In this document: positions 1 to 15,611 of the stretch, piece after piece
Layout of the letters: each line of letters opens with the position of its first letter
Numbering within the stretch: position 1 is the stretch's first letter
Source: Paramecium tetraurelia
Taxonomy: Eukaryota
Reading direction: 5' to 3'
NCBI GenBank assembly: GCA_000165425.1
Contig: CT868059.1
Location: forward strand, 1-64,000
Length of the DNA stretch: 64,000 bases
The notes under the pieces: generated by a model
Databases searched by the model: none
Told to the model about the DNA's origin: nothing
Seen by the model: only the letters and a program-made list of their open reading frames with translations
Translations under genes and position numbers: made by a program

Positions 1-5
1 GGAAG

Positions 6-78
6 CCCAAACCCAAACCCAAACCCAAACCCCAACCCCAAACCCAACCCCAAACCCAAACCCAAACCCAAACCCAAA
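6..78. repeat. Macronuclear telomere, CCC(A/C)AA repeats
   Basis: About 12 tandem units, mostly CCCAAA with CCCCAA and a few 5/7-nt variants, at the contig end; Paramecium-type TT(T/G)GGG. Confidence 0.97.
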
Positions 79-183
79 GGGAGAAATTGAATAAGTGGAG
101 AATTATCTCAGGAACTTAGGACAGCAATCCTTAAAAATAAAAATTCTAAATAATTAATTTAATTCTTTATGTAAATTATAGTT

Positions 184-2476
184 TCAAATTAATGATGATG
201 TTTTATTTACGGAATTATAATTAGTGTTATCAAACCCTTTGTTTGGTTATTTTTGATAAGCAATATAATAATATTTCTAAGCCTCTTCTAATTTATTCAT
301 TTTTTTTAAAGTATCAGCTTAGATATTATGAGAATTATAACATACCTTTATTTGTATAATAGACATGATTGGCAGGATTTTTCTCAATAGCTAAATCATA
401 ATATTTTAATGCTTCTTCAAATCGATTCAATTTAATTAAAGTATTGGCTTAGATATTATGCGAATAATATATACCTTTCATCCTATAAACCTCAGAATTT
501 TCAGGGTTATTCTAAATAGCGGAATCAAAATATTCCAATGCTTCTACGAATCTACTCAGTTTATCTAAAATAGTTGCTGAGATATATAGATTTGCTAGTA
601 CCTTTCTTCAAATAGTTCATGAAATTTTCAGGGTTTTTTTAAATAGCTATGTCATATTATTTTAATGCTTCTTCAAATTTATTTAATCTCTCTAATGCAT
701 TAGCTAAAATATTATTGAATTATACCTTTGTTTGAATAATAAAAGGAAATATCAGGGTTTTTCTAAATAGCTAAGTCATAACATTCTAAAGCTTCTTATA
801 ATCTGTTTATTATATGTAAAGAACTCGCTAGAAATTATGCAGATTAACTTATACCTTTGTTAAAATAGAGAATGTGATTTTCAGGGTTTTATTAAATGGC
901 TAAATTATATTATTCCAATGCTTCTTCAATTCTATTCAATTTCTTTAATGTCATGGCTAAATTACTTGGATTATATTATACCTTTGTTGTTGTAGTAAAG
1001 TGCATTTTGAGGGTTTTTCAAAATAGCTAAATTATATTATTCCAAAGCATCTTCTTCTCTATTCATTTTATCTAATGTAATCGCTAAGATATTATAAAGG
1101 CTTAATTGTACCTTTGTTATGATAATAATCTGAATCTTCAGTGTTTTTTTAAATTGCCAAATCATAATTATATAATGCTTCTGCAAATTGATTCAGTAAA
1201 CATAAAGCATTGGCTAAGATTTAAGCGAAGAAATTATACCTTTATTATTATAATAGGTAGAATCTTCAGGGCTATGATAAATAGCTAAATCATAATATTC
1301 TAATGCTTCTGTAAATCTATTCATCTTAAATAAAGCATTGGCTGAGTTTTTTATTGTAATAAATTATACCTTTGTTATTATGATAGTTTGAATTTTCAGG
1401 ATTTTTCGAAATCGCAATGTCAAAATAATCCAATGCTTCCTCAAATCTATTCACATTCATTAAAGTTTTAGCTTAAATGTTAGTTGAATAAAATTATACC
1501 TTTGTAAAAATAGTTATCTGAATCCTCTGGTTGTTTTGAAATAGATAAATCGTAATAATTAAGTGCTTCTTTAAATCTCTTCATTCTATCTAAAACAAAA
1601 GCTAAAATATTATGATGATTCAATGATACCTTTACTCTAATAATAGAGATGATTCTCAGAGTTTTTCTAAATTGCTTTATCAAACTATTCTAATGCATCT
1701 TCTAATCTATCCAAGTCATTTAATGTAATCGCTAAGAGATTATTCAAGATATAATTGTACCTTTATTATAATAATAGACTTAATTTTCAGGATTTATCTA
1801 AATAGCTAAATTATAATAATTCAATGCTTCTTTAAATCTTTTAAGTTTATTTAACATCTCCGCTAAAAGTAATGTGTAATTCATTATACCTTTACTATTA
1901 TAATAATCGGAATTTTAAGGATTTTTCCAAATAGCTGAATCAAAATATTTTAATGCTTCCTCACATCTATTCATCATTTTTAATGTAAAAGCTTGTTATT
2001 AATCAGATTTAAATATACCTTTATTATTATAATATCCTGAAGTCTCAGGGCTTTTAAAAATGGCTATATCATAATATTTTAATGCTTCCTCAAATCTATT
2101 CATCATTTTTAATGTAAAAGCTTGTTTATTATTCAGATTGAAAATACCTTTATTATTATAATACATAGCAATTTCAGGGTTTTTTTGAATTGCTAAATCA
2201 TAATATTCCAATGCTTCTTCTAATCTATTCATTTTTCTTAAAGTATCAGCTAAGATATTATGAGAATTACAATATACCTTTATTCTCATAATATTCTGGA
2301 CTATGAGGATTTATCTTAATAGCCAAATCATAATATTTCAATGCTTCTTCAAATATGCCCATTTTTTCTAAAGCATCGGCTAATATAGATATTATGTGGA
2401 TTACCTTTTTTAAAATAATACTCAGGGTTTTATTAAATAGCTCCCCCAAATTTGTTCATTTTCTTTAATCTTAATG
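184..2476 (-). CDS. Subtelomeric TPR-array protein: 16 full TPR exons, a truncated first unit and a capping exon; 5' end unresolved
   Basis: ~129-bp period = 102-nt exon (A-x-x-L-x-K-M-N-R-F-E-E-A-L-x-Y-Y-D-L-A-I-x-K-N-P...Y-Y-x-N-K) plus ~25-29-nt phase-1 intron; TGA at 186-184. Confidence 0.9.
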
Positions 2477-2969
2477 CTAAGCTTTTTTATTATTCAAACT
2501 TTTATATTTTTTTAATTTACTTCACTTTTTTTTTTCTCCTTATCCCCAATTCCAATATTGTTTTTCATTTAAGAATCAGCATTAATTTTAAGAAATTTTG
2601 CACCTTCTATCAATATATGTTTGTTTTATTGTTGAATGAAACTTTAGTGAACATTATGCTATATAAATTAAAAAAAATTTCGAATGCAAGCTTAATTTAT
2701 AAATATTTATTCTACTTATCTTGTCTTTGAAGCCATTCTAACGATATTACATTGTTAGTTTAAATTTTAATTTATTATCTTCAAATAGAAATAAATTTTT
2801 TTCTTTTTCAATCACAAAAAATTCATACATAAAAAAATAAGTAGATTTAAATTAGAGTCACAAAGATCTTTTCAACCTGAAATATCAGATAGCCATTTAG
2901 TCTAGATACTAGAATAGACCATTGATTTTTTTTCAATAAAATTATACTCAGATATATAGGGATAAGGAT

Positions 2970-4960
2970 ATAATGACGAGACTAATTAAAATCAATACTA
3001 TCTAAACTATTGATGTGTAATTCTTGGCTTTTGAGATGTATTTGATGAAAAAATTCTTTGTGAGTTAGATCTACAATAGGCTCAATCATTTGGGTAATTT
3101 AACTGCTCTTGAAGGATATTCATTTGGAAAAGTCGATATTTTTGAAGGCTATCTAACTTTCTCAAAGGAAACAATTGAACAGCCAGAGTTGAAATATAAA
3201 ATGTCAGCAAAATTTGAAAAAGTTAGCAGAACTATAAATTTCAAAATTAGTATGTTGATTTTTATCAGTCAGATAATTCATAATTACAATTTGATTTTAA
3301 TATTAAGGTTTACTTGCAAAAACTTTAGAATGAATAGTTCAGATTATGAAATTATGAATATCTTTATGTTAGATTGAAAGCTGCCAACCTTTTTCAGTAT
3401 TTCTATATGTTTATTTATTTTCCAATATTTATTTGATTTTATTGCTATATTAAAGACATGATATCAAGAATCATAAAGGATTTTCTGAAAAATTTTTTTT
3501 TAAATACCATAATATTAGTAAAATTAATGATTTCAAATCTTTAAAGGGCAAATCCAGTTTATTTAATGGTAGTCCTTATTAATCTCAAAAAATAATTTCC
3601 ATTTTTTTATTAAGAATATGATCTGTCTTAATGAACGATAAATTGATTGATGATCATAGATATTCAAAATTGTTTCCACTCTTGATACTTCCTACAACTT
3701 TAAAATTGTATTTGAAATCTCTTAACTAACTTCCATCCATATGAAATATTTCCACCCTTTTCACTCTTTAAATGTTAAAAATAAACATTTTTTGCTGTTC
3801 TTCATTCTGATATATTCATGAATCATAAAATACCCAAATAATATCTTGCTTTCTATGATAAGATAAAACAAAAACTATAAATTTCAAACCTAGCTTCAGT
3901 TCTAGATAAATACTCAAACCGAAAAAGCTTGTAAAAAATTAAAATAAATATTTATACTAAAATAGGTACCAATTATTAGATAAAGAATATCAATTAATAA
4001 AATCACTCTTCTTATATCATATTTCAATATCAAAACTAATCTATCCTAAAGTCAAAAACATAATAAGTTTAAAGTTATGTTTTGTTTATACTAATAAAGC
4101 TAATTGTGTATTTTAAATACAATAAAAAGTTTGATACTTGATTTATTATTTATATTAAATCTAATACAAAATTTGATCGAATTGCATCAAGTTCGAATTT
4201 TAAAATTATGTGAATAAATGTCTTAATTTAACGATCCGTTTTCCTTTAACAAAAGGGTTGAGATATATCTAGAAATTTACATGTTGATTTTAATTTAATC
4301 TTAGGAAGCTTACCCTATAGAAGTAATTAAAAAGTAGTTATAAATTAAAAAATTGAAAAGTTTATTACCTAAGAAATAAATGTGTGAAATGGAAGCTTCA
4401 ACACTTCAATCATACATAATTTTATATTGAAATAAAATTAAGAATTTATAATTGCTATTTATATATATTGTTGAGCTTAGTATCAATTCTAAGTAAACAT
4501 GATAATTAAAGGGTTAAATCATTAACTAAAAGTGCTATCTAAGAATAGACTAATATTCATAATTCCACATTTTTTCTTTATTGTTCTAAATCTATGATAT
4601 TAAGTAAACTTATAGATCTTGTCAATCCCTAATAAATGTTAAAAAATAGCCAATTTCCATTTAAGAAGTTCTGTACTTTGCAATAACTTAGATATTTCGA
4701 AAACTAATCATTATTTTAAATGAAAAGTAAAAATTGAATTTGAAGATATTGGTGAAAAGGAAACTGATCTTTAGAATAACAAATTCTGCAAGGCACTTAA
4801 AAACCATCTCGATATTTGAATAGGGAGTTAAAATTTAATTGATGACATACAAATATCTGCTGAAAGGATTCTCCATTATGAAATATTTGAAGATCAAAAT
4901 AGAAAAATTTTCATATATTTGTCAACAAAGCTATTTGAATTTGAGATATTTTCATTTTTT
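2970..4960 (+). pseudogene. Possible decayed subtelomeric coding remnants
   Basis: Coding-like stretches (about 3090-3377 and 4594-4730) interrupted by TGA or frame changes; no coherent model found. Confidence 0.25.
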
Positions 4961-5058: not shown

Positions 5059-6238
5059 TCATTAATAAACATCATCGTCATCTTCTTCATCCATTGGTCC
5101 GTCATTTCCGCCAGGTGGTTGTTGATTAGGGGGATTAGCTTGTTCTCTTTGAACATGTTAGGCTAAATTTAGTGAAAGAACTTACTAAAAAGATCTCCAT
5201 TTGCTTGTTTCTCAAATAAATAGTTAATTGCCATTTCCACATTTTTATCACATGCTATATAACCTTCTAAAGAGTCTTATTTAGTAAAACCGAGTTACAT
5301 AATCTAAAATAGAATCAATATAAGTACAGTTTCAATATCTTTAAATTCTTATTAAGTCAATTAGATAGATCCTGGAGGGGGGCCCTATTATTATCCTGCA
5401 CCCATAAGCATTTGTAATAACATTTCAGGGTTTTATGAAACTTAAGCGTGTAACTCTGGATTTGTCTATTAAATTTGTTGCAACAATTAAGGTAATAATT
5501 AGAGAACGGCTTATGGATTCTATTAGTACAACTATCTGAGTTATTAGATTTAATTTGGCTAACCAACTGGCTATTGTGCTGCAGGTGGTTATCCTTATCC
5601 GCTAGCAACTGGAGCAGGAGGATGTGATGTAACACCAGGAGGAATGCCCTAATTATAGAATTTAAAATACATTTAATAAGTATTCAACAGCTCTATCAGG
5701 GTTATTGAATGCTGCCTTCATAGCATTTACGCATTCCTCTCTTTGGAATCCCATAGACATTAACTACTCGATAGCTTTGTCATACTCTGGACCGGATAGC
5801 AATCCTGTTCCAGATCCAGCTGGTTTAGCAACTGGAGCAACTTAAGGTTGAGGCTATTATTGTGGGGGTAATTATTAAGCAGGTTATTAAGCTGGCTGTT
5901 ATTAAACAGGCTATTAGGCAGGTGGTTGTTAGGCTGGTTATGGCTACTGAGGTGCTGATTTCTAAGAATATTTTAAATAATTTTAATTACTTTGGCATTA
6001 ACCATGACTACTAAAAATTCGTTTTCTTAAATTCCCAATTCTGCAATAGTGGTTTTATCATCTAAGAGTGTACCTTTTCTTAATAATTTTTGTTGACCAA
6101 CTTCAAATTATTTCACTTAAAAGATCTTTTCTTTCACATCTGAAATCTAAAATATTTTGATTAATTATATACTGTGTCTGATCCTTCCACATCTAAAGGA
6201 AAGTTTTATCCGCTTAATGTTTTAATAATAATTTTCAT
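5059..6238 (-). CDS. RAD23: UV excision repair protein RAD23 (UBL-UBA-XPC binding-UBA)
   Basis: [53 protein letters not shown]1; [47 protein letters not shown]2. Confidence 0.95.
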
Positions 6239-6807: not shown

Positions 6808-9800
6808 TCATTATTGTTTCTTGGTTTTCTTTTTGCTAAAGAATTTTTCTAAAGCTTAAATATCAGATTCATTGTCTAGATCCATCATTTCTTCTACATT
6901 TAGTGGTTCTAAACTAGTAATAATCTAAGCTTTTTTTCTAAAAATAATAGTTAGTTTCTTACTGCTGTTGAATAACAATCCCAAGATTAATTTTCATATC
7001 ACTTATTGCCTCTGCAACTAATTATTATCTTCGCTTTAATAGAACACTATCATGGTCTATTCTTGCTGTTGGATCTCCAATGGAAAACTTAAACTCTGTA
7101 TTTTTGAACATCAAATATAATGAATCAGCTATTTTGGAGATTGATTTTAATAAAAATTGGTAATCATTACCAACTTTTGGCCTATGGATATTATTGTAAT
7201 TTACTCTATAAATTCATTCCAAAATAATGCGATAGGTCTAGTAGTATCAGGACAATCGAAACAATGTAACCATGCTCTAATACGGATGTCACTAGCTAAA
7301 TTTAATTCAATTTCTCCCTTCATTTATGTTCTATAGGCAAAGTATTCTCGAAAAGCTGATTACATGCTTAAAGCCCATTTATTGAGCATGCATTTATTTG
7401 GTAGTGCTGATATTTTTTGAACCATCAAAGGAGGTAATTTCATGACTTCCAAAATTAATTAAGATTTTATATTAGAAGAAAGTGCTTTTACAACAGATCT
7501 CCATCCATTTCGATTTGTTCTGATATCTTTTTTATCAATAGTAATATCTTTTAATGGAGCACCACCTTTCAACTCAAGAATTTGTTTGCCTGGCTTTAAT
7601 TGATAGACAGGAATCGAACCATATGCACATGAGATCTATATTAGTCTTCCTTTATTAACGGAATAAGTAATGAATTCAAAAACCATCTCCTTTAAGTTAT
7701 CCAACTTTTCATCAAAATTACCCCATCTCATTAAGATGGCCTACTCCATAGCTGGTTATTCAAAAACCCATCTATCTTCATATTCTGGATTCCAAGCAGC
7801 AGGAATATAAACAGCATTACCTTCATACTTATTAATTGCTTTATCTATTAGGATGATGCCTATTTCTCTTCTCAAGAATGAACCCCTAGGTACATCTTTT
7901 TCATCTGGAATAGGTATTCCTGTTGCTTCAATCAATCTAATTTCTGCTAAGAAATTATTTTTAATATTAACTTTATCAAGAATGCTTTGTTTAATATTGA
8001 AATTAGATGCTTCAACATAATTTAGACCTTAATAAAAAAATCCACAATTATCAAGAACTGGTTTTAGTTAAGAGGATGGAAGATTTTGTAGTTTTTTATT
8101 TTATCCCCTAACAAAACTCATAATAAAGTTTTAAGGTAATTATAAGAAAATCTCTTTCAAATCATGTAATGAGATTCTTCTGCTACCCTTGATATTCATT
8201 ACTGCAGCTGAAGCTTTGGCTGACATTCCTGATTAGTTTTTTTGTATGAAATAAATAAATTCATCTATATCAATGGATCCAGATTTATCCTCATCTATTT
8301 CAACGAATAAATCTGTTAGTTCTTCATTTTTAATAAGTACTCCCATATTTTAGAATACTTAGCTCACTTGCTCTTTAGATAACATTCTTGTAGTTGGATT
8401 ACAAACTTATCTGAATTCTCTTCTCAAATCTTCTAATAAGTCATCTGCTTGCAGAAGTTCTTTTTTTAGGATATCTTTAACTATATGCGAGAATTCCTAA
8501 TATGATATTGTTCCACTTCTGTCTCGATCAAACTGAGCAAAATACTAAGATAACTCTTCAGTTCCAGGATTTAAACCTACAGATTGAAGAGCCTTTAGCA
8601 ATTCCCTTTAGTCTAGTTATTGATTTTTGTTTTCATCAATTTGGTTAAATAAATCCAAAATTTCTTATTCTATATCTTAACTTTAGACAATATTATCGGC
8701 TTATTTTTTTATTTATTATTCTGTTTATTTTGACTGAAACACTAATCTAAATTCATTAATAGAAATATGTCCACTAGAATTAGCATCTAGGTAATCATAT
8801 AGTTCTTCGCATTGAGTAGCAGATAATCCAAATTAAGCATCTAATGCTTTTTTAGTAAATTAAACTCTATCAATTGTGCTATTTGAATTCGGAGGGAAGA
8901 AATAAAGTGCAAAGTCATCATATGTTTTACTTCTCTTCTTCAAAAATTCATTTATTATAGGGAGCATCTTATTGAATTTTTCTTTGTTTTGAGTATTCAA
9001 TATAGACTTACGTTAATCCTTTTATGCTAAACCAAATTGTTATTTCTCATCCTCTTAGCTATATTAATTGATTTTAGTTCGATCCACATTTAAAAATTTG
9101 GCTAAATCGCTCAAATTTATGAACCCATTCTATTACAATAATTATTTAATTGATTTGATTTCATCGGCTGATATAGACCCTATTAATTTCTTACTTACAC
9201 TCAAAAAATCATTAAAGGGTATTTGATTGTATCCTCTTTTATCTAGTTGCTCAAAAAGATTGAAGCAATTTTTAGCTAATACTGCTTCTGATAGATGTAA
9301 TAAAAATGAATCTAGTACTGATTATAAAGCAGGATCTTTAGATTGAGTATCCTACTTTTATGGAATTACAATCTAATTTAAATTTAGAACTTCCTCGTAA
9401 ATCTTAAATGTTATCAAACCCTTTTACTCAGTATCCCAATACTAAAATGCTTCCCTCAATTCTCTTTCATTCAAACCAATTTTTAAATTGCTATTGATCT
9501 TATCTAATTATTTAATTTGCCAAGTGGGTTGATTCTCTCCAATTAGACCCCAAAGTTATTGTTTTGTATATTGTTTATGTTTGATCATAGTGAAGTTAAG
9601 TGCTTTGGCTAAAAGTTTACCAGGATTATTCATCTTTAAATATGGTAAAACTATCCCCATTTGATTTTACCCTTATGAATAATAGTAGTAATATTATTAG
9701 ACATGAGGTGTTGGTGCTAGTATTTCTAAAAATTAAAATGCCAATTCTAATTGATCAGGCCTTGATATTTTTAATTCTGGAAGTGGTGTTTCATCATATT

Positions 9801-12800
9801 GACACAGTAAATCAAAGAGATCAATATTTTTTTAGATGCACTTTTTTTGTATTTCTTAATCATAGAAATTTAGATCAAATTCAATAGGAATTTAAGATTA
9901 TTAAGGTTGAGGTTTGGCAGCTCTGGATTAATTAGGATCATATTTTTAAGAATATTGATCTTATCCTTGTGATACCCAGCTTTATTCAAATTTAGCATTC
10001 TGAACCCATTCTTGCTTTTTATCGAATTCTTATGGAACCTGTTTATTATACATTGTATTTTAAGGAGGATAGGCAATAGAACTATTAGGGATGGATGCAT
10101 TAAATGAAGCTTCCTATTGATTATATTATGGATTATATTATTAGTATTATTATTATTATTACGGTAACTAATTATTATATTAAGGTTTCTATTAACCATT
10201 ATATTAAGACTATTAAGCATTATATTAAGGTTATTACCCAGGAAATTATTGTTATTACCCAGGAAATTATTATTATTATTATCCAGGAAATTGTTGTTAT
10301 TATCCAGGAAATTGTTATTATTATCCTGGATATTGTTGTTATTGTCCATATTGCATTTATTAACCATTTTATTATTATTATTATTAATACTGAGGTTATT
10401 AAAATTGAGGAGGTTCTTAAAATTAAGAAGGTTAAGGTTAAACGTTTTATTGATATGGTTATTATTGAGGAATCTACACTTATGGTTATGATTATGATTA
10501 GATAGATTATTATCTTTATTACTATTTAAAGCCTAAGATAAATCTAAATTAATCTAATTTTTCTGAATATTCTTAATCAAAATATCTAAAAAATTAATCT
10601 AATTCAAGCATCGAGTATTTTTAAAAATAATTGATATAATTCGCAAATTGTTTAAATTCGATAAATTAAGATCCTTATGAAATGATTAGAAATAAATCAG
10701 ATAATTATTATTCCATCTGTGGATTGCGGCCATTTAACATTACTAATTTCATTTCCTGAATTTATTTAGCAGTGATTTCATTTCTTTTATATATTTAATA
10801 TTCAAACTCTGTGAAATTAATTTTACCATCTTTATCCATGTCAAATATATCAAATAGTTATTTTTAATTATCAACAGTCGTACTGTATCCAATAGTCTTC
10901 AAAAGTAAGGCAGTAAATTCTTCAAATGATATGAAGTTATTTTTATCCTTGTCAGTCTACCTATACATTGCAAGGAGAGTGCACACCTCCTTCTCTAGAT
11001 ATTGAGTAAAACTTTTAACAATTCTATCAATTTCCTAATTTGTATTGAGCACCAAGACCTTCCTACTCTCCTTGTACTTGGCTAATCCTAAGTTAATGAA
11101 ATCGTTGAAGGCATAATAATCGATGTAATCTTGAGCATCCTATTCTATTATTGTGAGTAATAGTTCCCATTCATTATCATTCAAAGCAATTGATTTGTCA
11201 GTCATTCCCATCTTAAGTGCTTTTACTTTGACCTTTCCCTTATGATTGATATCAAACTCCTAAGAAATCTCGATTACATTAGTGTTTTTGTTTTTGAGTT
11301 GGTCTCTTAACTTGGTAGCAATGGCCTCTATTTTAGTGGAAGGTGTTTCAACTTAATATTGCTTAGCTTTTAAACAAAAGATTTTGTAGTTGACGTTGTT
11401 ACCTTGTAATGCACCTAATTAATCAGCCAAGGCCTTCATTTCAAGCAATTAAATATTGGGACCATTATTTTTCTTGAGTACCATGATAAAGGTGTCTAAA
11501 TCTAATTTATTGGTATAATTTTCATCTCTTATTTCAAACTCTCCCAACAAGGCTGGAGAATCTTTAGCAAATTTCATTACATCATCAAATATACTCAACT
11601 ATTATTTATTGATTGTTGCCATAACCCTAGGCTTATCTTTGGTACACACTTTAGATTTGAATTCACTGATACTTATTGACCCATCCTAATTGGAATCAAG
11701 AAGTAAGAACAAATTATCAACTGGTTTATTCCTTGACATGGGATCGATGTCTCTAATCAATTTATAGAATTCTTGTTTATCTAAAACGTCATTTCCATTT
11801 TGATCATAATTATAAAACAGTGATGCTGTTGCCACCTTACCTGATTAAATAGTTTAATTCAAATTAATCAATAATTACTCCGCTTCTTCACAATCATGCA
11901 TCAGAACTGCCAATTTATCATATTGCAAAAACTTCTTATCTTCTGGGGATAGTAAATATTAAGCCAACTATTTGAATTCCTGGAATTCAAAGCCTAAACT
12001 CACTATGATATCTTAGAAGGCATTTAGCAAGATCTATCCTCTTCCTTTTTTATCAAATATCTCCAAGGATTCGTTATTTTCCCTTAAAGCATCTTTTAAT
12101 CGAAAGACTGCTTTCATAATCTAAGGAGTTAATTGTTTTGCAAATGTTTATGCGGTCTGTTTATATTTATATTTTGTCTATTATTGCTCTGATATGTCAT
12201 TTTCTTAATGTGATATCTTTTGCTTAAATTCATATAAGTTAATTGTATTGTCTCCATTGGCATCCAATTTTAAAAACAAAGATTCTACAATCTTTTAATC
12301 AACATCTCCTACTAATTACACAAGAAATTCAGCAAATTCTCTTAATTCTAATTTTGTATTTCTATTCGCATCATACTTCTTAAATACCTATTCAGGTTTG
12401 CTTTATTCATATGCTAATTCTGTATTGATATCTGATAATAGTTTATTTGAGGCTTCATCAAGTTTCAAACCCTATTTTAGTTTATGCAATGATATGTTTT
12501 ATTAATCCTATTGGATACTGGTTAAGAAATCTTAGAATTGATTATCTCCTGTATCTAATTACAATTGTTTATTGACAAAGTCTTGGAACTGCTTTTTTCG
12601 AATATATCCATCTCCCAAAGTGTCCAGATCCTCAATGTCTGCAAATGTGATTCTCTTCTTCTTCATCTATTTATTGAGCTACTCCAGAAACATAATAGCT
12701 TTATGTTGACTGTACCTATACTGCTCTATTTTTTTATCCTTATAATACAGTATTGCCTCAATGAGTAAATCAACATCAACTAATGACTTATCATGTGGTA

Positions 12801-15057
12801 CTAGAAGATTGTTCAATAGTTCTTCTTACTCTATTTCATAATCTCCTTTGTAAATTTCTAATTATCTGATTTTTTCTTTATATTATGTAATAGACATCCT
12901 TTAAAATGTGCTTTTAAAATACTATCTAGGAGTTTATTCTCTTTCTTGTAATTATTTATAGATAAATTGTAATAGTTGTTTTTGAGGATCAAATTACTTT
13001 GCATTAAATTTGATTGACTTATGCATAGATTCTTCTGGATCATCAAATGCACTTTTCTTCTCTTGTTTCTATTCCTTCACTTCTAATTCTTGGAGTAACT
13101 TCCAATTAGATATTTTTAGATCTTTACCCTTTTATACCATTGCATTAATGAATTGAGGGTACTCTATTTCATCTTTCACTCCAAAGATGCTCATTAAAAA
13201 TGTGAAATCTGAGTTCTTAAGACCATCATTTGCTTATTTAAAAGCGTTAAACAATTAATTTTTGGTGATTATGCTGGCGCTTTTTGTATTACTTCTTATC
13301 AGTTATGGCAATGTCATAGAAATACTCGCTAAACCATTGACAATTTCCTATAGAATTGCTCTGACATCTTCATTTATCAATTCTTCAAAGAATACTCTTA
13401 CATTTTCAAAGGAAATAGATTTCTTGTTTGTTGGATCCAGATGCGATAGTAACTACTTTTCAATATCAGGAGAAGGATGAATTTTAAGATCATTCAAGAA
13501 CCTATGTATTTCTTCATGACTCAATTCACCTCTTGATTTTGTGTCATAATGTCTGAAGAATTAGATAAAAATATTGTGGATTTCCCTTATTCCCCTATAC
13601 ATCTTCATTTTTAAATCATTGAACCCCAACTATTATTGATTCATAGACTTTGTATCTTCACAAAATTACTCATAATATATGATATTCTTCTTCTTAGGGT
13701 CATATTTCTATTGAATAATTGGAATATCTTCAGCAGCCAAATTTATTTAGTTGTCTTTTAGTGTTTAATCGAATTTTTCAAATTGCAGATATCCTACTAA
13801 TTCTGTGTCATTCTCTTTGAATTTCTCCAATAAATTAATTTTTTGCTCTTCAAGATATTTATGCAATTCCTTCATCATTTCTGATAGTTCCTACTCCTAA
13901 TAGTCATTCAATTCTCCTAACTTGATAATCTCCTTTTAATTTTACACCCATTAAGATAAATCAATCTCATCCTTTTTTGAGTTGTCAAACTATGCCAGAA
14001 ATGCTGATTTCTCCTTTGCAGTCACTTCAATTTTCAAATCCTGTAAAGCCTCCCAAAAGAATTCAGGTTTTATTCTCCGACTAACTGGTTATAATTAATA
14101 TTTGGATAAGTATTATGTAGCTGTTTGTGATTTCAATTATTTTGCTTTTTCCTTCAGTTCTTCTAACAAGAGTTCTGGCTATGGTGTTATTAATGTTTCA
14201 TCTGCAATTATCGCATTTTAAGAAAAAAAGTCTTGAACTAGATCTTCAACTTCTGACAAAGGTGGTCGATTATTGGGGTTTTTTTCCAACATTTTCTCTA
14301 TTAAATTATTGAAGTGGTTCCCATATGCTTTTCTCACTATTTCTCTGATTTCAATCCCCTTTTAGGATTCATGAGCCTAAAAATCTCGGAACACTAATAA
14401 TTCTTCCATTTCTCTGAGTGATGCCATTTGCAAAAATACCATTCCCAATTACCATACATCTATTTTTTGGGGATCTCCTCCGAATTAATCGGCCTAAGCA
14501 GTCCCTTATGAAAATCTTTGACTTTGGTTTTTTTTTAAAGTGGCAATGGATTCAGGAGGTAAGTAATTTTCGTTATTCTCATTTGAAAATTAATTGAAAT
14601 CTGTAATCACACAGCCTCCGTCTTCGTCCTCAAATAAATTCGAAGGCTTGATTCTGCAATGAAAAAATCTCTGTGTCTCAGTTTTTTTCGATTTATGTAT
14701 TTTATCCAACCAATTGGTAAATTCATCGACGTATTTTTGCATCACATTCATGGGAATGAACTTTCCCTATCTTCTATGCAATTTAATTAAATCCCCCATC
14801 GAATGTTTAAATTTCTTATAAACGAAGCTCACACCTTGTTTATCTTCCCAATATCCTTCTGGTATATAGATGCCTGGTTTTGATAATCGAATTTTCATTT
14901 AATCGATTTCATCAATCAATTCTTTTTATGTCTTCTTTTGAGGAACGACCTGCTTGCACACCCATTACTCTAAACCCTTCTTATATAGTCCTGTTTTTCC
15001 ATTGATTGGATAAATAATTTAAAACTCTCCTTATTGAAGTTTTTTCAATTAAGACAT
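6808..15057 (-). CDS. Giant (~2,730 aa) pseudokinase + many EF-hands + Q/P-rich linker + nephrocystin-1-like C-terminal domain
   Basis: Same frame at checkpoints 15057, 14460, 10620, 8160 and 7860; introns of 23 and 25 nt near the 3' end; HCRIKPSN, TDFN, YLPPE, KIDVWQLG; many DxDxxG EF loops; C-terminal GIPIP..RREIGI..AAWNP..WVF..VFEF..ISCAYG..LELKGGAP. Confidence 0.88.
10231..10350 (-). repeat. Coding tandem repeat (F/Y)PGQQQQ x5 inside the giant gene
   Basis: 21-24-nt units such as tttcctggataataacaacaa on the minus strand. Confidence 0.85.
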
Positions 15058-15611
15058 TAATATAATATATAATCTTAAATATTTGAATTTCTAGTGAAAT
15101 TCTGAACATACAGTAGGTTCCTGGACAAAATGTGGGATTAAGATTCTGTAAAAAACCATAAAACAGGATTACTGTTCTAAATGGCTACTTACAAAAAATG
15201 GGATTAACTGAATGTTCAAATATCTTATATATAAAATAAAGATAACCAAACTAATACGATCTTTGAATCTTATTAGTTAAATATATCTGAATAAACCATT
15301 TGAGAATTATTTTAATAAATAATCTGTTAACTTTTATGATACGCGAGGGAAATAATTATAAAAATATTTAAACCCTTTTCGTGTCTGAACGTTCACTTCA
15401 AAAATGCATTAGGAAATTAATTAAGTAGAGTAATTAATTGCCATTCTTTTGATTTCAAGAAGTTAACTTTTTGGTTTGGTGGAATTCGAAAATGTTGATC
15501 AGACTTAATCATTAATAGTAATAGGCGTGTCTCATTTCTTTGAGCGGGTTTCGTATTTTGCCATCGATCCATCATGGTTTCAGATTATAATCATTATAAA
15601 TATCATTTAAG

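What the first reader, a model, noticed from the sequence alone, without database searches (positions are those of the whole stretch)
184..2476. Telomere-adjacent TPR cassette array: one TPR per 102-nt exon, all introns in the same phase
Seen: 16 consecutive 34-codon exons, each one TPR-length unit, separated by tiny introns that all fall in phase 1 at the K|A junction. Scaffold residues (EEAL.YYD.AI..NP) are conserved. Positions right after the Ala and after NP vary freely (ADALEK, AFTLKM, AEMLNK, ASSLHI, ATILDK...). The stop codon lies only ~105 nt from the telomere. Inference: any exon skipping, unequal crossover or gene conversion keeps the frame, so this could be a combinatorial, rapidly diversifying binding-protein system (immune- or recognition-like). 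It would parallel fixed-length-exon LRR arrays in Tetrahymena, placed here in a recombinogenic subtelomere.
Basis: partly seen in the sequence, partly recalled or inferred. Interest (0 to 1): 0.85.

Follow-up and report, generated by a model that had tools for sequence, protein, structure and literature searches.

The report
Paramecium TPR gene, one repeat per exon
The last gene before a Paramecium somatic chromosome end encodes a 17-repeat TPR scaffold protein in which every repeat sits on its own 102-base exon, most likely because an exon-plus-intron block was copied in tandem long ago, not because it is an immune-like shuffling system.

Summary
On the minus strand, ATG 2459 to TGA 184, there are 18 exons. 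Sixteen consecutive exons are exactly 102 nt, and 17 introns of 22-29 nt all split an Ala codon after its first base (AAAG|GTA..AG|C). The stop lies 105 nt from the telomere repeats.

Under the ciliate code the spliced frame gives 606 residues of TPR protein (Pfam TPR_1 E 4.5e-16). The best named relatives are Paramecium tetraurelia and P. octaurelia TPR proteins. Some of their public gene models translate straight through introns at the same K|A junction.

The introns resemble one another far more than shuffled controls (up to 25/28 identical). The array therefore grew by tandem duplication of a ~129-nt exon+intron cassette, which explains the uniform phase.

The units are old: mean 70% nucleotide identity with no gradient along the array. 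Median dN/dS is 0.45. The most variable sites (TPR positions 2, 12, 9, 5) are the ones that vary in all TPR proteins.

Nothing supports exon skipping, rapid recombination or immune-like use, and a macronuclear telomere is not a germline subtelomere. Expression of this copy could not be shown.

This is an ordinary family member with a neat architecture. It parallels the Tetrahymena 90-bp LRR exon arrays and was not found described in print.

The parts
1..78 (.). Macronuclear telomere repeats (C3A3/C4A2 mix)
79..183 (-). 105-nt spacer between stop codon and telomere (3' untranslated region, inferred)
184..317 (-). Exon 18 (last): a final TPR-like unit plus a short tail; TGA stop at 186-184
318..345 (-). 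Intron 17, 28 nt, phase 1; 25/28 identical to intron 2
346..447 (-). Exon 17 = unit 16, 102 nt
448..474 (-). Intron 16, 27 nt, phase 1 (3n, no in-frame TGA)
475..576 (-). Exon 16 = unit 15, 102 nt
577..601 (-). Intron 15, 25 nt, phase 1, ends in CAG
602..703 (-). Exon 15 = unit 14, 102 nt
704..725 (-). Intron 14, 22 nt, phase 1
726..827 (-). Exon 14 = unit 13, 102 nt
828..854 (-). Intron 13, 27 nt, phase 1 (3n, no in-frame TGA)
855..956 (-). Exon 13 = unit 12, 102 nt
957..981 (-). Intron 12, 25 nt, phase 1
982..1083 (-). Exon 12 = unit 11, 102 nt
1084..1111 (-). Intron 11, 28 nt, phase 1
1112..1213 (-). Exon 11 = unit 10, 102 nt
1214..1239 (-). Intron 10, 26 nt, phase 1
1240..1341 (-). Exon 10 = unit 9, 102 nt
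1342..1369 (-). Intron 9, 28 nt, phase 1, ends in CAG
1370..1471 (-). Exon 9 = unit 8, 102 nt
1472..1499 (-). Intron 8, 28 nt, phase 1
1500..1601 (-). Exon 8 = unit 7, 102 nt
1602..1629 (-). Intron 7, 28 nt, phase 1
1630..1731 (-). Exon 7 = unit 6, 102 nt
1732..1760 (-). Intron 6, 29 nt, phase 1
1761..1862 (-). Exon 6 = unit 5, 102 nt. One DNA run carries a 28-nt TA-bounded insertion behind 1851, which looks like an IES
1863..1889 (-). Intron 5, 27 nt, phase 1 (3n, no in-frame TGA)
1890..1991 (-). Exon 5 = unit 4, 102 nt; closest pair with unit 3 (84% nt identity)
1992..2018 (-). Intron 4, 27 nt, phase 1 (3n, no in-frame TGA); 24/28 aligned columns identical to intron 3
2019..2120 (-). Exon 4 = unit 3, 102 nt
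2121..2147 (-). Intron 3, 27 nt, phase 1 (3n, no in-frame TGA)
2148..2249 (-). Exon 3 = unit 2, 102 nt. A 66-nt contig of an RNA run matches 2148-2199 exactly and stops at the donor boundary
2250..2277 (-). Intron 2, 28 nt, phase 1
2278..2379 (-). Exon 2 = unit 1, 102 nt
2380..2404 (-). Intron 1, 25 nt, phase 1
2405..2459 (-). Exon 1 (coding part), 55 nt. The ATG at 2459-2457 is the Met of a decayed, shortened TPR unit
2460..2476 (-).
   Evidence: read (inference)
2477..2972 (.). AT-rich spacer to a divergent plus-strand gene (ATG near 2973; RNA contigs at 2806-3455 and 3528-3927)

Best explanation
This is a Paramecium macronuclear chromosome end. Its last gene encodes a 606-residue protein that is TPR repeats nearly from end to end: a decayed half unit, 16 full units, one terminal unit and a 20-odd-residue tail.

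The architecture (one TPR per 102-nt exon, every intron in phase 1 inside the codon for TPR position 8) is the footprint of how the gene grew. A ~129-nt cassette of one exon plus one tiny intron was duplicated in tandem, in single- and double-unit steps. Selection then held every exon at 34 codons while intron lengths drifted between 22 and 29 nt.

The introns are most likely removed constitutively. The product would be a TPR superhelix of about two turns (recalled: roughly 8 TPRs per turn). It would bind extended stretches of partner proteins in its concave groove. Backbone contacts would come from a row of Asn at position 6, as in the O-GlcNAc transferase TPR domain. Specificity would come from the variable positions 2, 5, 9, 12 and 13.

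Shown here: gene structure, TPR identity, conservation pattern, intron homology, and relatives with introns at the same place. Inferred: splicing of this copy, the fold, the binding mode and the duplication mechanism.
For: Organism: the telomere type (repeat type recalled as Paramecium's), 20 in-frame TAA/TAG codons with a single TGA stop, 22-29-nt introns, and best named hits from P. tetraurelia and P. octaurelia.

Structure: 16/16 internal exons are 102 nt and 17/17 introns are phase 1 at AAAG|GTA..AG|C.

Purifying selection:
- The frame is open over 606 codons, against 23 and 38 TGA in the other two frames and 0/2000 shuffles without one.
- There is no length change in 1632 nt of exon, while the 455 nt of intron show six different lengths.
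- Median dN/dS is 0.45.

TPR identity:
- Pfam TPR_1 scores 58.4 bits against a cut-off of 27.8, E 4.5e-16. The junction Ala aligns to profile position 8.
- All 16 spacings between units are exactly 34 residues.
- The nearest solved sequences are the human OGT TPR domain (1w3b, E 7e-8) and a consensus TPR superhelix (8bu0).
- Asn occupies position 6 in 11/16 units. The role of OGT's Asn ladder is taken from PMC11145291 (passages).

Cassette duplication:
- The mean pairwise alignment score of intron cores is 2.60, against -1.17 +/- 0.33 in 300 shuffles (maximum -0.30).
- Introns 2/17 are 25/28 identical; introns 16/17 and 3/4 are 24/28.
- Units 3-4 and their introns form the closest pair.
- TRF also finds a 256-nt double-unit period.

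The same junction in relatives:
- The P. octaurelia model P0204 aligns in a single frame with unspliced window DNA, through intron read-through and out-of-frame exon segments (tblastn E 2.5e-31, 48% over 152 residues).
- Models P0002 and P0005 carry K-G-x(7-8)-A/G inserts at the unit junction, like the window's own read-through P0001.

Related literature: Arnaiz et al. 2012 report IESs in 3-6 copies that arose through expansion of TPR and WD40 repeats in P. tetraurelia (PMC3464196, passages).
Against: No RNA evidence shows that this copy is transcribed or spliced as modelled. The only hint is one 66-nt contig of an RNA run that ends exactly at a donor site, and it could come from a close paralogue.

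The 5' end is a decayed unit that uses an internal Met. The longer relatives (P0002, P0003, P0005, P0008) have 175-390 residues ahead of their repeats. This copy may therefore be a truncated duplicate.

Some intron pairs are more alike than their neighbouring exons: introns 2/17 are 89% identical, against 81% for the adjoining exon parts. This could reflect some gene conversion.

Intron positions in relatives were read from protein models, not from their DNA. Partner, fold and binding mode are untested; the one fold attempt was unusable.
Confidence: 0.7

Rival explanations
1. Combinatorial recognition system. The phase-1, 102-nt exons are kept so that exon skipping, unequal crossover or conversion can generate many binding variants. 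The locus would diversify quickly, as an immune- or recognition-like repertoire near a recombinogenic chromosome end.
For: Frame preservation under any unit loss or gain is true by arithmetic. The variable residues lie on what is the ligand face in TPR proteins. Related units are numerous in the same genome: 130 of 148 contigs of DNA run X16 that were laid on the stretch were only 90-99% alike. The Tetrahymena LRR arrays, a structural parallel, are fast-evolving (PMC6564038). Introns 2, 16 and 17 are unusually alike.
Against: The units are old and not homogenised (mean 70% identity, no distance effect). dN/dS is below 1 overall and not clearly above 1 at the variable sites. The variable sites are those that vary in TPR proteins in general. 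DNA run X16 shows the same unit number. Regulated splicing in P. bursaria is mainly intron retention and alternative 3' sites. The telomere is somatic, and heritable recombination happens in the micronucleus (established ciliate biology; for germline DNA beyond MAC ends).
Confidence: 0.06
2. Truncated, decaying duplicate. A partial copy of a longer TPR gene ended up next to a chromosome fragmentation site. It lost its 5' part and is now drifting with little or no function.
For: The first unit is decayed and shortened, and the start codon is an internal Met of the repeat. Four longer relatives have long non-repeat N-termini that this copy lacks. Its product was not among the hits of two protein searches that would have found it. 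Five of 17 introns are 3n without an in-frame stop.
Against: The frame is intact over 606 codons where about 12 TGA are expected by chance. All 34 splice-site dinucleotides are intact and all 16 exons keep exactly 102 nt. dN/dS is 0.33-0.45 across units. These signals measure the past, however, so recent loss of function is not excluded.
Confidence: 0.17
3. Independent intron gains. Each intron was inserted separately at the same AAAG|GC proto-splice site of an already existing intron-less TPR array.
For: The junction sequence AAAG|GC recurs in every unit and resembles a proto-splice site. Some paralogue transcripts or contigs show a 204-nt two-unit spacing that is also present in a DNA run. 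This leaves room for intron-less arrays.
Against: The introns are homologous to one another, far above shuffles and up to 89% identical. The closest exon pair also has the closest introns. A P. octaurelia relative carries intron-like sequence with similar residues in read-through at the same site.
Confidence: 0.03

Closest known systems
[quoted passage not shown] 2019, PLoS Biol, PMC6564038; passages read)
   Same: Both are ciliate repeat-protein genes. Long runs of internal exons have one exact length and all introns share one phase, so the array is an interlocked, frame-preserving unit. Growth is by duplication of exon+intron units. Low expression in culture is reported for the rapidly evolving, species-specific genes in Tetrahymena.
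   Different: The repeat type differs (TPR, not LRR), as do the exon size (102, not 90 nt) and the phase (1, not 2). Here one exon is exactly one repeat. The units here are old (70% identity), unlike the young group III arrays. A genome-wide expansion, retrotransposon links and a germline map position were not testable. That paper says P. tetraurelia LRR genes lack such a pattern and does not mention TPR exons.
TPR domain of O-GlcNAc transferase (PDB 1w3b; PMC11145291, passages)
   Same: It is the best solved-structure match by sequence (E 7e-8). It is a long uninterrupted TPR run forming a superhelix. Asn at repeat position 6 is present in 11/16 units here, as in the OGT ladder that grips peptide backbones.
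   Different: No glycosyltransferase domain follows the repeats. Pfam finds only TPR families and the protein ends about 20 residues after the last unit. Identity is low, and no aspartate ladder was examined.
Paramecium TPR proteins P0002, P0003, P0005 (P. tetraurelia) and P0008, P0204, P0205 (P. octaurelia)
   Same: They share the unit signature. Identity to the spliced product is 45% over 518 residues (P0002), 51% over 211 (P0003) and 63% over 169 (P0008). Intron-like inserts or read-through occur at the same K|A junction.
   Different: None is the product of this locus. The longer ones have long N-terminal non-repeat parts. Their DNA could not be fetched, so exon lengths are unknown.
Designed consensus TPR superhelix (PDB 8bu0 and related entries)
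   Same: 34-residue period and the consensus small and large hydrophobic positions (A8, A20, A27, P32).
   Different: Position 7 is Lys in 16/16 units instead of the consensus Leu, and position 4 is Tyr instead of Trp (the consensus residues are recalled).

Membership tests
Tetratricopeptide repeat (Pfam TPR_1 / TPR_2) | Score above the curated family threshold | tested here: met
   TPR_1 58.4 bits against 27.8; TPR_2 55.5 against 27, on a 4-unit read-through of window DNA
Tetratricopeptide repeat (Pfam TPR_1 / TPR_2) | Tandem 34-residue period | tested here: met
   16 of 16 anchor-to-anchor spacings are 34 in the spliced product
Tetratricopeptide repeat (Pfam TPR_1 / TPR_2) | Signature residues at positions 4, 7, 8, 11, 20, 24, 27, 32 (consensus recalled) | tested here: met
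   Y4 15/16, A8 16/16, L11 16/16, A20 16/16, Y/F24 16/16, A27 15/16, P32 14/16. Position 7 departs from the consensus (K in 16/16)
Tetratricopeptide repeat (Pfam TPR_1 / TPR_2) | Helix-turn-helix repeats stacking into a superhelix | tested here: inconclusive
   The single-sequence AlphaFold model of the read-through P0001 is all-helical but has pLDDT 41.9. The spliced protein could not be submitted
O-GlcNAc transferase / SPINDLY type | C-terminal glycosyltransferase domain | tested here: not met
   Only TPR families were found. The protein ends about 20 residues after the last unit
O-GlcNAc transferase / SPINDLY type | Asn ladder at repeat position 6 | tested here: inconclusive
   Asn in 11/16 units. 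The alignment to 1w3b places it on OGT's Asn. No structure is available
Fixed-length, same-phase exon arrays of ciliate repeat genes (Tetrahymena LRR type) | Runs of at least 3 internal exons of one exact length | tested here: met
   16 consecutive exons of 102 nt
Fixed-length, same-phase exon arrays of ciliate repeat genes (Tetrahymena LRR type) | All introns in one phase | tested here: met
   17/17 are phase 1
Fixed-length, same-phase exon arrays of ciliate repeat genes (Tetrahymena LRR type) | 90-bp exons, phase 2, LRR coding | tested here: not met
   102 nt, phase 1, TPR
Fixed-length, same-phase exon arrays of ciliate repeat genes (Tetrahymena LRR type) | Large genome-wide family with recent clonal expansions | not testable with these tools
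   No genome is held. Within this gene the units are old. Related units exist elsewhere in the genome and in P. octaurelia
Combinatorial / diversifying receptor systems | Many isoforms or variable unit number | not testable with these tools
   No long RNA contig lies on the gene. One DNA run is colinear with the window
Combinatorial / diversifying receptor systems | Positive selection on binding residues | tested here: inconclusive
   Between units, pN 0.59 against pS 0.50 at positions 2, 5, 9, 12, 13, saturated. Elsewhere dN/dS is 0.33. The proper test needs orthologues

The most novel reading that the evidence does not exclude
Paramecium may hold a lineage-specific family of TPR genes assembled from ~129-nt cassettes (a 102-nt phase 1-1 exon plus a tiny intron). 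This would be the TPR counterpart of Tetrahymena's 90-bp LRR exon arrays. Cassettes would be exchanged among paralogues by ectopic recombination in the germline. The resulting repertoire of groove surfaces would serve recognition of changing targets such as prey, symbionts or mating partners, with copies near macronuclear ends under position-dependent control.
Probability: 0.12. Interest if true: 0.7.

Novelty: new member of a known kind. Interest (0 to 1): 0.35.

Why it matters
The gene is a clean natural example of how a repeat protein grows in a genome with tiny introns. The duplicated block carries its own intron, so phase and exon length are inherited, not selected for shuffling.

If the 102-nt phase-1 exon proves to be a genome-wide signature of Paramecium TPR genes, it would be a second, independent ciliate case beside the Tetrahymena LRR arrays. 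It would also give a handle on rates of cassette duplication, intron drift and IES gain inside repeats.

There is a practical consequence as well. Several public gene models of relatives translate through these introns or through out-of-frame exons. Such arrays are therefore a known-unknown source of annotation error.

Tried and rejected
Whole-genome tests (exon-length histogram, distance to telomeres): no genome is held for this window.

Earlier notes of the scan: three look-ups by place, sequence and words returned nothing.

Expression and exon skipping. Runs X17 and X19 behave as RNA: the neighbouring gene at 5123-6120 is covered by contigs lacking four introns, at depth about 900-1600. On the TPR gene, X17, X19 and the RNA run X20 gave only 40-60-nt pieces, mostly 90-95% alike, which come from related transcripts. 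This says nothing either way about expression of this copy.

The joints listed inside the array all have short sides of 21-41 nt, and many have foreign letters between the two sides. I read them as paralogue contigs, not as exon skipping.

Word shares of 0.96-0.98 in 16 runs of 8 studies cannot resolve the loss or gain of a single unit. The runs may also all be one laboratory stock. I did not use them as evidence of stability.

Fold: the AlphaFold single-sequence model of P0001 had pLDDT 41.9. It was unusable, so no fold search was run.

Family size: a search with the repeat region of P0002 listed prokaryotic TPR proteins almost exclusively. Only P0002 and P0005 were from Paramecium among the 120 rows listed of 898 hits.

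P0205 has an odd 70-residue spacing that I could not interpret as simple intron read-through.

In-frame intron retention as a source of isoforms: 5 of 17 introns are 3n and none has an in-frame TGA. With TGA as the only stop this is about what chance gives, so I dropped the idea.

Upstream exons: reading, the only upstream ATG that reaches a GTA donor would run into a TGA after the relic acceptor. The next gene is on the other strand. I found no N-terminal extension.

Other TPR arrays in the window: none outside 1-2600 (best tblastn E 0.16).

Literature: five full-text searches found no description of 102-nt TPR exons in Paramecium. Subscription journals and ParameciumDB gene models were not searchable.
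Full report
**What is there**

The window starts with 78 bases of mixed C3A3/C4A2 telomere repeats. I recall this mix as the Paramecium type. Tandem Repeats Finder reports an array of period 129-130 nt from about 366 to 2354, with 12.7-14.5 copies at 67-68% matches.

On the minus strand, every one of the 17 'G|GTA' sites between 2404 and 345 follows AAAG. If the exon after each is set to 102 nt, each of the first 16 introns ends in AG. The 17th intron (345-318) does too.

The model has 18 exons:
- exon 1 (coding part) at 2459-2405;
- sixteen exons of exactly 102 nt, from 2379-2278 down to 447-346;
- a last exon at 317-184.

The 17 introns measure 22-29 nt. All begin with GTA; ten end in TAG, five in AAG and two in CAG. 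All lie after the first base of an Ala codon, so all are phase 1 at a Lys|Ala junction.

With the ciliate code the spliced frame gives 606 residues, with 13 TAA and 7 TAG read as Gln and one TGA as the stop at 186-184. The stop is 105 nt from the telomere. The first usable ATG is at 2459.

**Is it more than chance?**

- The other two frames of the spliced sequence contain 23 and 38 TGA.
- None of 2000 shuffles was free of in-frame TGA (mean 11.8).
- Unspliced read-through from the ATG stops at codon 36.
- The 1632 nt of the sixteen exons show no length change at all, while the 455 nt of intron show six different lengths.

Together these say that the introns are real, and that the frame and the 34-codon period have been held by selection.

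**What it encodes**

I could not submit the joined protein to the search tools. Instead I used P0001, the straight translation of 1761-2247. It reads units 2-5 through three 27-nt introns that happen to be in frame and free of TGA.

- Pfam gives TPR_1 at 58.4 bits (cut-off 27.8; E 4.5e-16) and a dozen other TPR models. The junction Ala aligns to profile position 8.
- In the spliced product all 16 unit spacings are 34.
- A8, L11, A20, L21, I28 and K7 are invariant in 16/16 units. Y4 and A27 are present in 15/16 and P32 in 14/16.
- The nearest solved sequences are the TPR domain of human O-GlcNAc transferase (1w3b, E 7e-8) and a designed consensus TPR superhelix (8bu0).
- Asn occupies position 6 in 11/16 units. 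In OGT this position forms the asparagine ladder, which makes bidentate contacts to the backbone of peptides lying in the superhelical lumen (PMC11145291, passages).
- There is no catalytic or other domain. The protein is repeats plus a short tail.

**Relatives**

The 'longer' protein search gave 85 hits among 1170 candidates. The best four named hits are Paramecium TPR proteins: P0002, P0003 and P0005 from P. tetraurelia, and P0008 from P. octaurelia. The 'near' search gave two more from P. octaurelia, P0204 and P0205 (2 hits among 80 candidates).

Against the spliced product, P0002 is 45% identical over 518 residues, P0003 is 51% over 211 and P0008 is 63% over 169. The product of this locus itself did not appear among the hits.

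Several of these public models betray unspliced introns at the same junction:
- P0002 and P0005 carry K-G-x(7-8)-A/G inserts between units, exactly like P0001.
- P0204 aligns in one frame with unspliced window DNA, through an out-of-frame exon, an intron read-through, an in-frame retained intron and a further read-through (tblastn E 2.5e-31, 48% over 152 residues; 17 HSPs in all).

The cassette architecture is therefore shared by relatives in at least one other species label. This was read from proteins, not from their DNA.

In DNA run X16, 130 of the 148 contigs laid on the stretch were only 90-99% alike. Related units thus exist elsewhere in the same genome. Two RNA-run contigs of 848 and 889 nt hit the same 57-nt piece twice, 204 nt apart. 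That spacing is two units without introns.

**How the array arose**

The introns are homologous to one another. The mean pairwise alignment score of their cores is 2.60, against -1.17 +/- 0.33 in 300 composition-preserving shuffles (maximum -0.30). The caveat is that shuffling also destroys any generic intron motifs.

Introns 2 and 17 are 25/28 identical, and introns 16/17 and 3/4 are 24/28. The closest exon pair, units 3 and 4 (84%), also has one of the closest intron pairs. TRF also sees a 256-nt double-unit period at 599-1195.

The simplest account is serial tandem duplication of an exon+intron cassette. Uniform phase and position follow automatically. The exact 102 nt follows from the structural need for 34 residues.

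Arnaiz et al. 2012 report that IESs present in 3-6 copies in P. tetraurelia correspond to expansion or recombination of TPR and WD40 repeats (PMC3464196, passages). That is the same process seen through another kind of embedded non-coding element.

**Is it diversifying quickly?**

- Pairwise nucleotide identity between the 16 units averages 0.70 (range 0.55-0.84). It does not fall with distance along the array: 0.71 at lag 1 and 0.71 at lag 7. There is no sign of homogenisation or recent turnover apart from units 3-4 (dS 0.32).
- Nei-Gojobori estimates over all 120 pairs give pS 0.46, pN 0.27 and median dN/dS 0.45. Outside the five hypervariable sites, dN/dS is 0.33. At those five sites pN is 0.59 against pS 0.50, which is saturated and not clearly above one.
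- The most variable columns are TPR positions 2 (3.20 bits), 12 (3.16), 9 (2.95), 5 (2.91), 29 (2.38) and 13 (2.25). Magliery and Regan found positions 2, 5, 9, 12, 13, 33 and 34 to be the most variable in TPRs at large, all on the concave ligand face (PMC1261162, passages).
- DNA run X16, from a study other than the two possible source runs, tiles 100-2467 with six overlapping contigs carrying 0-1 mismatches. It therefore has the same unit number.

**Exon skipping and the telomere**

I could not test exon skipping. The RNA runs gave no long, near-identical contig on the gene, and I treat this as no information. One 66-nt contig of X17 matches 2148-2199 exactly and stops at the donor boundary of exon 3, where the DNA run reads on into the intron. 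This is a hint of splicing, but a close paralogue is not excluded.

In P. bursaria the regulated splicing events are chiefly intron retention and alternative 3' sites (PMC12862383, passages).

The telomere here is macronuclear. Such ends are made during development next to eliminated germline DNA. Arnaiz et al. walked past the end of a MAC scaffold into germline transposons. Heritable recombination takes place in the micronucleus, so 'recombinogenic subtelomere' does not follow from the position.

Position near a MAC telomere can matter for expression. Surface-antigen genes need it for Rdr3-dependent silencing. The same study, however, saw no general effect on other subtelomeric genes (PMC4235209, abstract and passages).

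**Surroundings**

- The next gene is on the plus strand (ATG near 2973; RNA contigs at 2806-3455 and 3528-3927). It has no Pfam match.
- Next comes a RAD23-like gene on the minus strand, with UBA and XPC-binding domains. RNA contigs confirm four of its introns.
- Beyond it lies a very long EF-hand and kinase gene at 7111-15498.
- No other TPR array lies in the window.

**Verdict**

The gene is an ordinary member of a Paramecium TPR family with a tidy cassette architecture, best explained by tandem duplication of an exon+intron block and later purifying selection. The immune-like, combinatorial reading is not supported, though exon skipping remains untested. A truncated, possibly idle duplicate is the main rival.

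The architecture parallels the Tetrahymena 90-bp LRR exon arrays (PMC6564038). Five full-text searches found no description of it. I rate the finding a new member of a known kind, of modest interest.

Noticed in passing
window 1851 (inside exon 6, 1761-1862): DNA run X16 carries a 28-nt insertion behind 1851 at partial depth (10.5 of 28.2). It starts with TA and is followed by TA. This looks like a short internal eliminated sequence retained in part of the molecules, sitting inside a TPR exon.
   Followed up: partly
window 100 and leftwards: A 2445-nt contig of DNA run X16 lies on 100-1052 with its last 953 letters. It therefore extends about 1.4 kb beyond where the window has its telomere. 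It may be germline or alternative-end sequence past the telomere addition site, or an assembly join through telomere repeats. The sequence was not visible.
   Followed up: no
window 3965: DNA run X16 has a 30-nt insertion behind 3965 at full depth (45.3 of 45.3), in a stretch without RNA cover. It is either a strain difference or a difference between assemblies.
   Followed up: no
window 5123-6120, minus strand: RAD23-like gene (UBA and XPC-binding domains). RNA-run contigs at depth about 900-1600 lack 23, 24, 22 and 29 nt at 5163, 5304, 5648 and 5962. These are four confirmed tiny introns.
   Followed up: partly
window 3807: A 27-nt stretch is left out in the X17 contig but kept in the X19 contig of the plus-strand gene at about 2973-3931. 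It is a 3n intron seen both spliced and retained, or the X19 contig is DNA.
   Followed up: no
window 7111-15498, minus strand: A single open frame of 2795 codons under the ciliate code, with a protein kinase domain, many EF-hand pairs and a long Gln/Pro-rich low-complexity stretch.
   Followed up: partly
proteins P0204, P0205, P0005, P0002 (public Paramecium gene models): These models translate through unspliced introns, and in places through out-of-frame TPR exons. They are annotation errors typical of these cassette arrays.
   Followed up: partly
window 565-576, 692-703, 1072-1083, 1590-1601 and 2368-2379 (first 12 nt of the exons behind introns 15, 14, 11, 7 and 1): An in-frame AG lies 12 nt into the exon in 5 of 17 cases. 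If used as an alternative 3' splice site it would drop four residues without shifting the frame.
   Followed up: no
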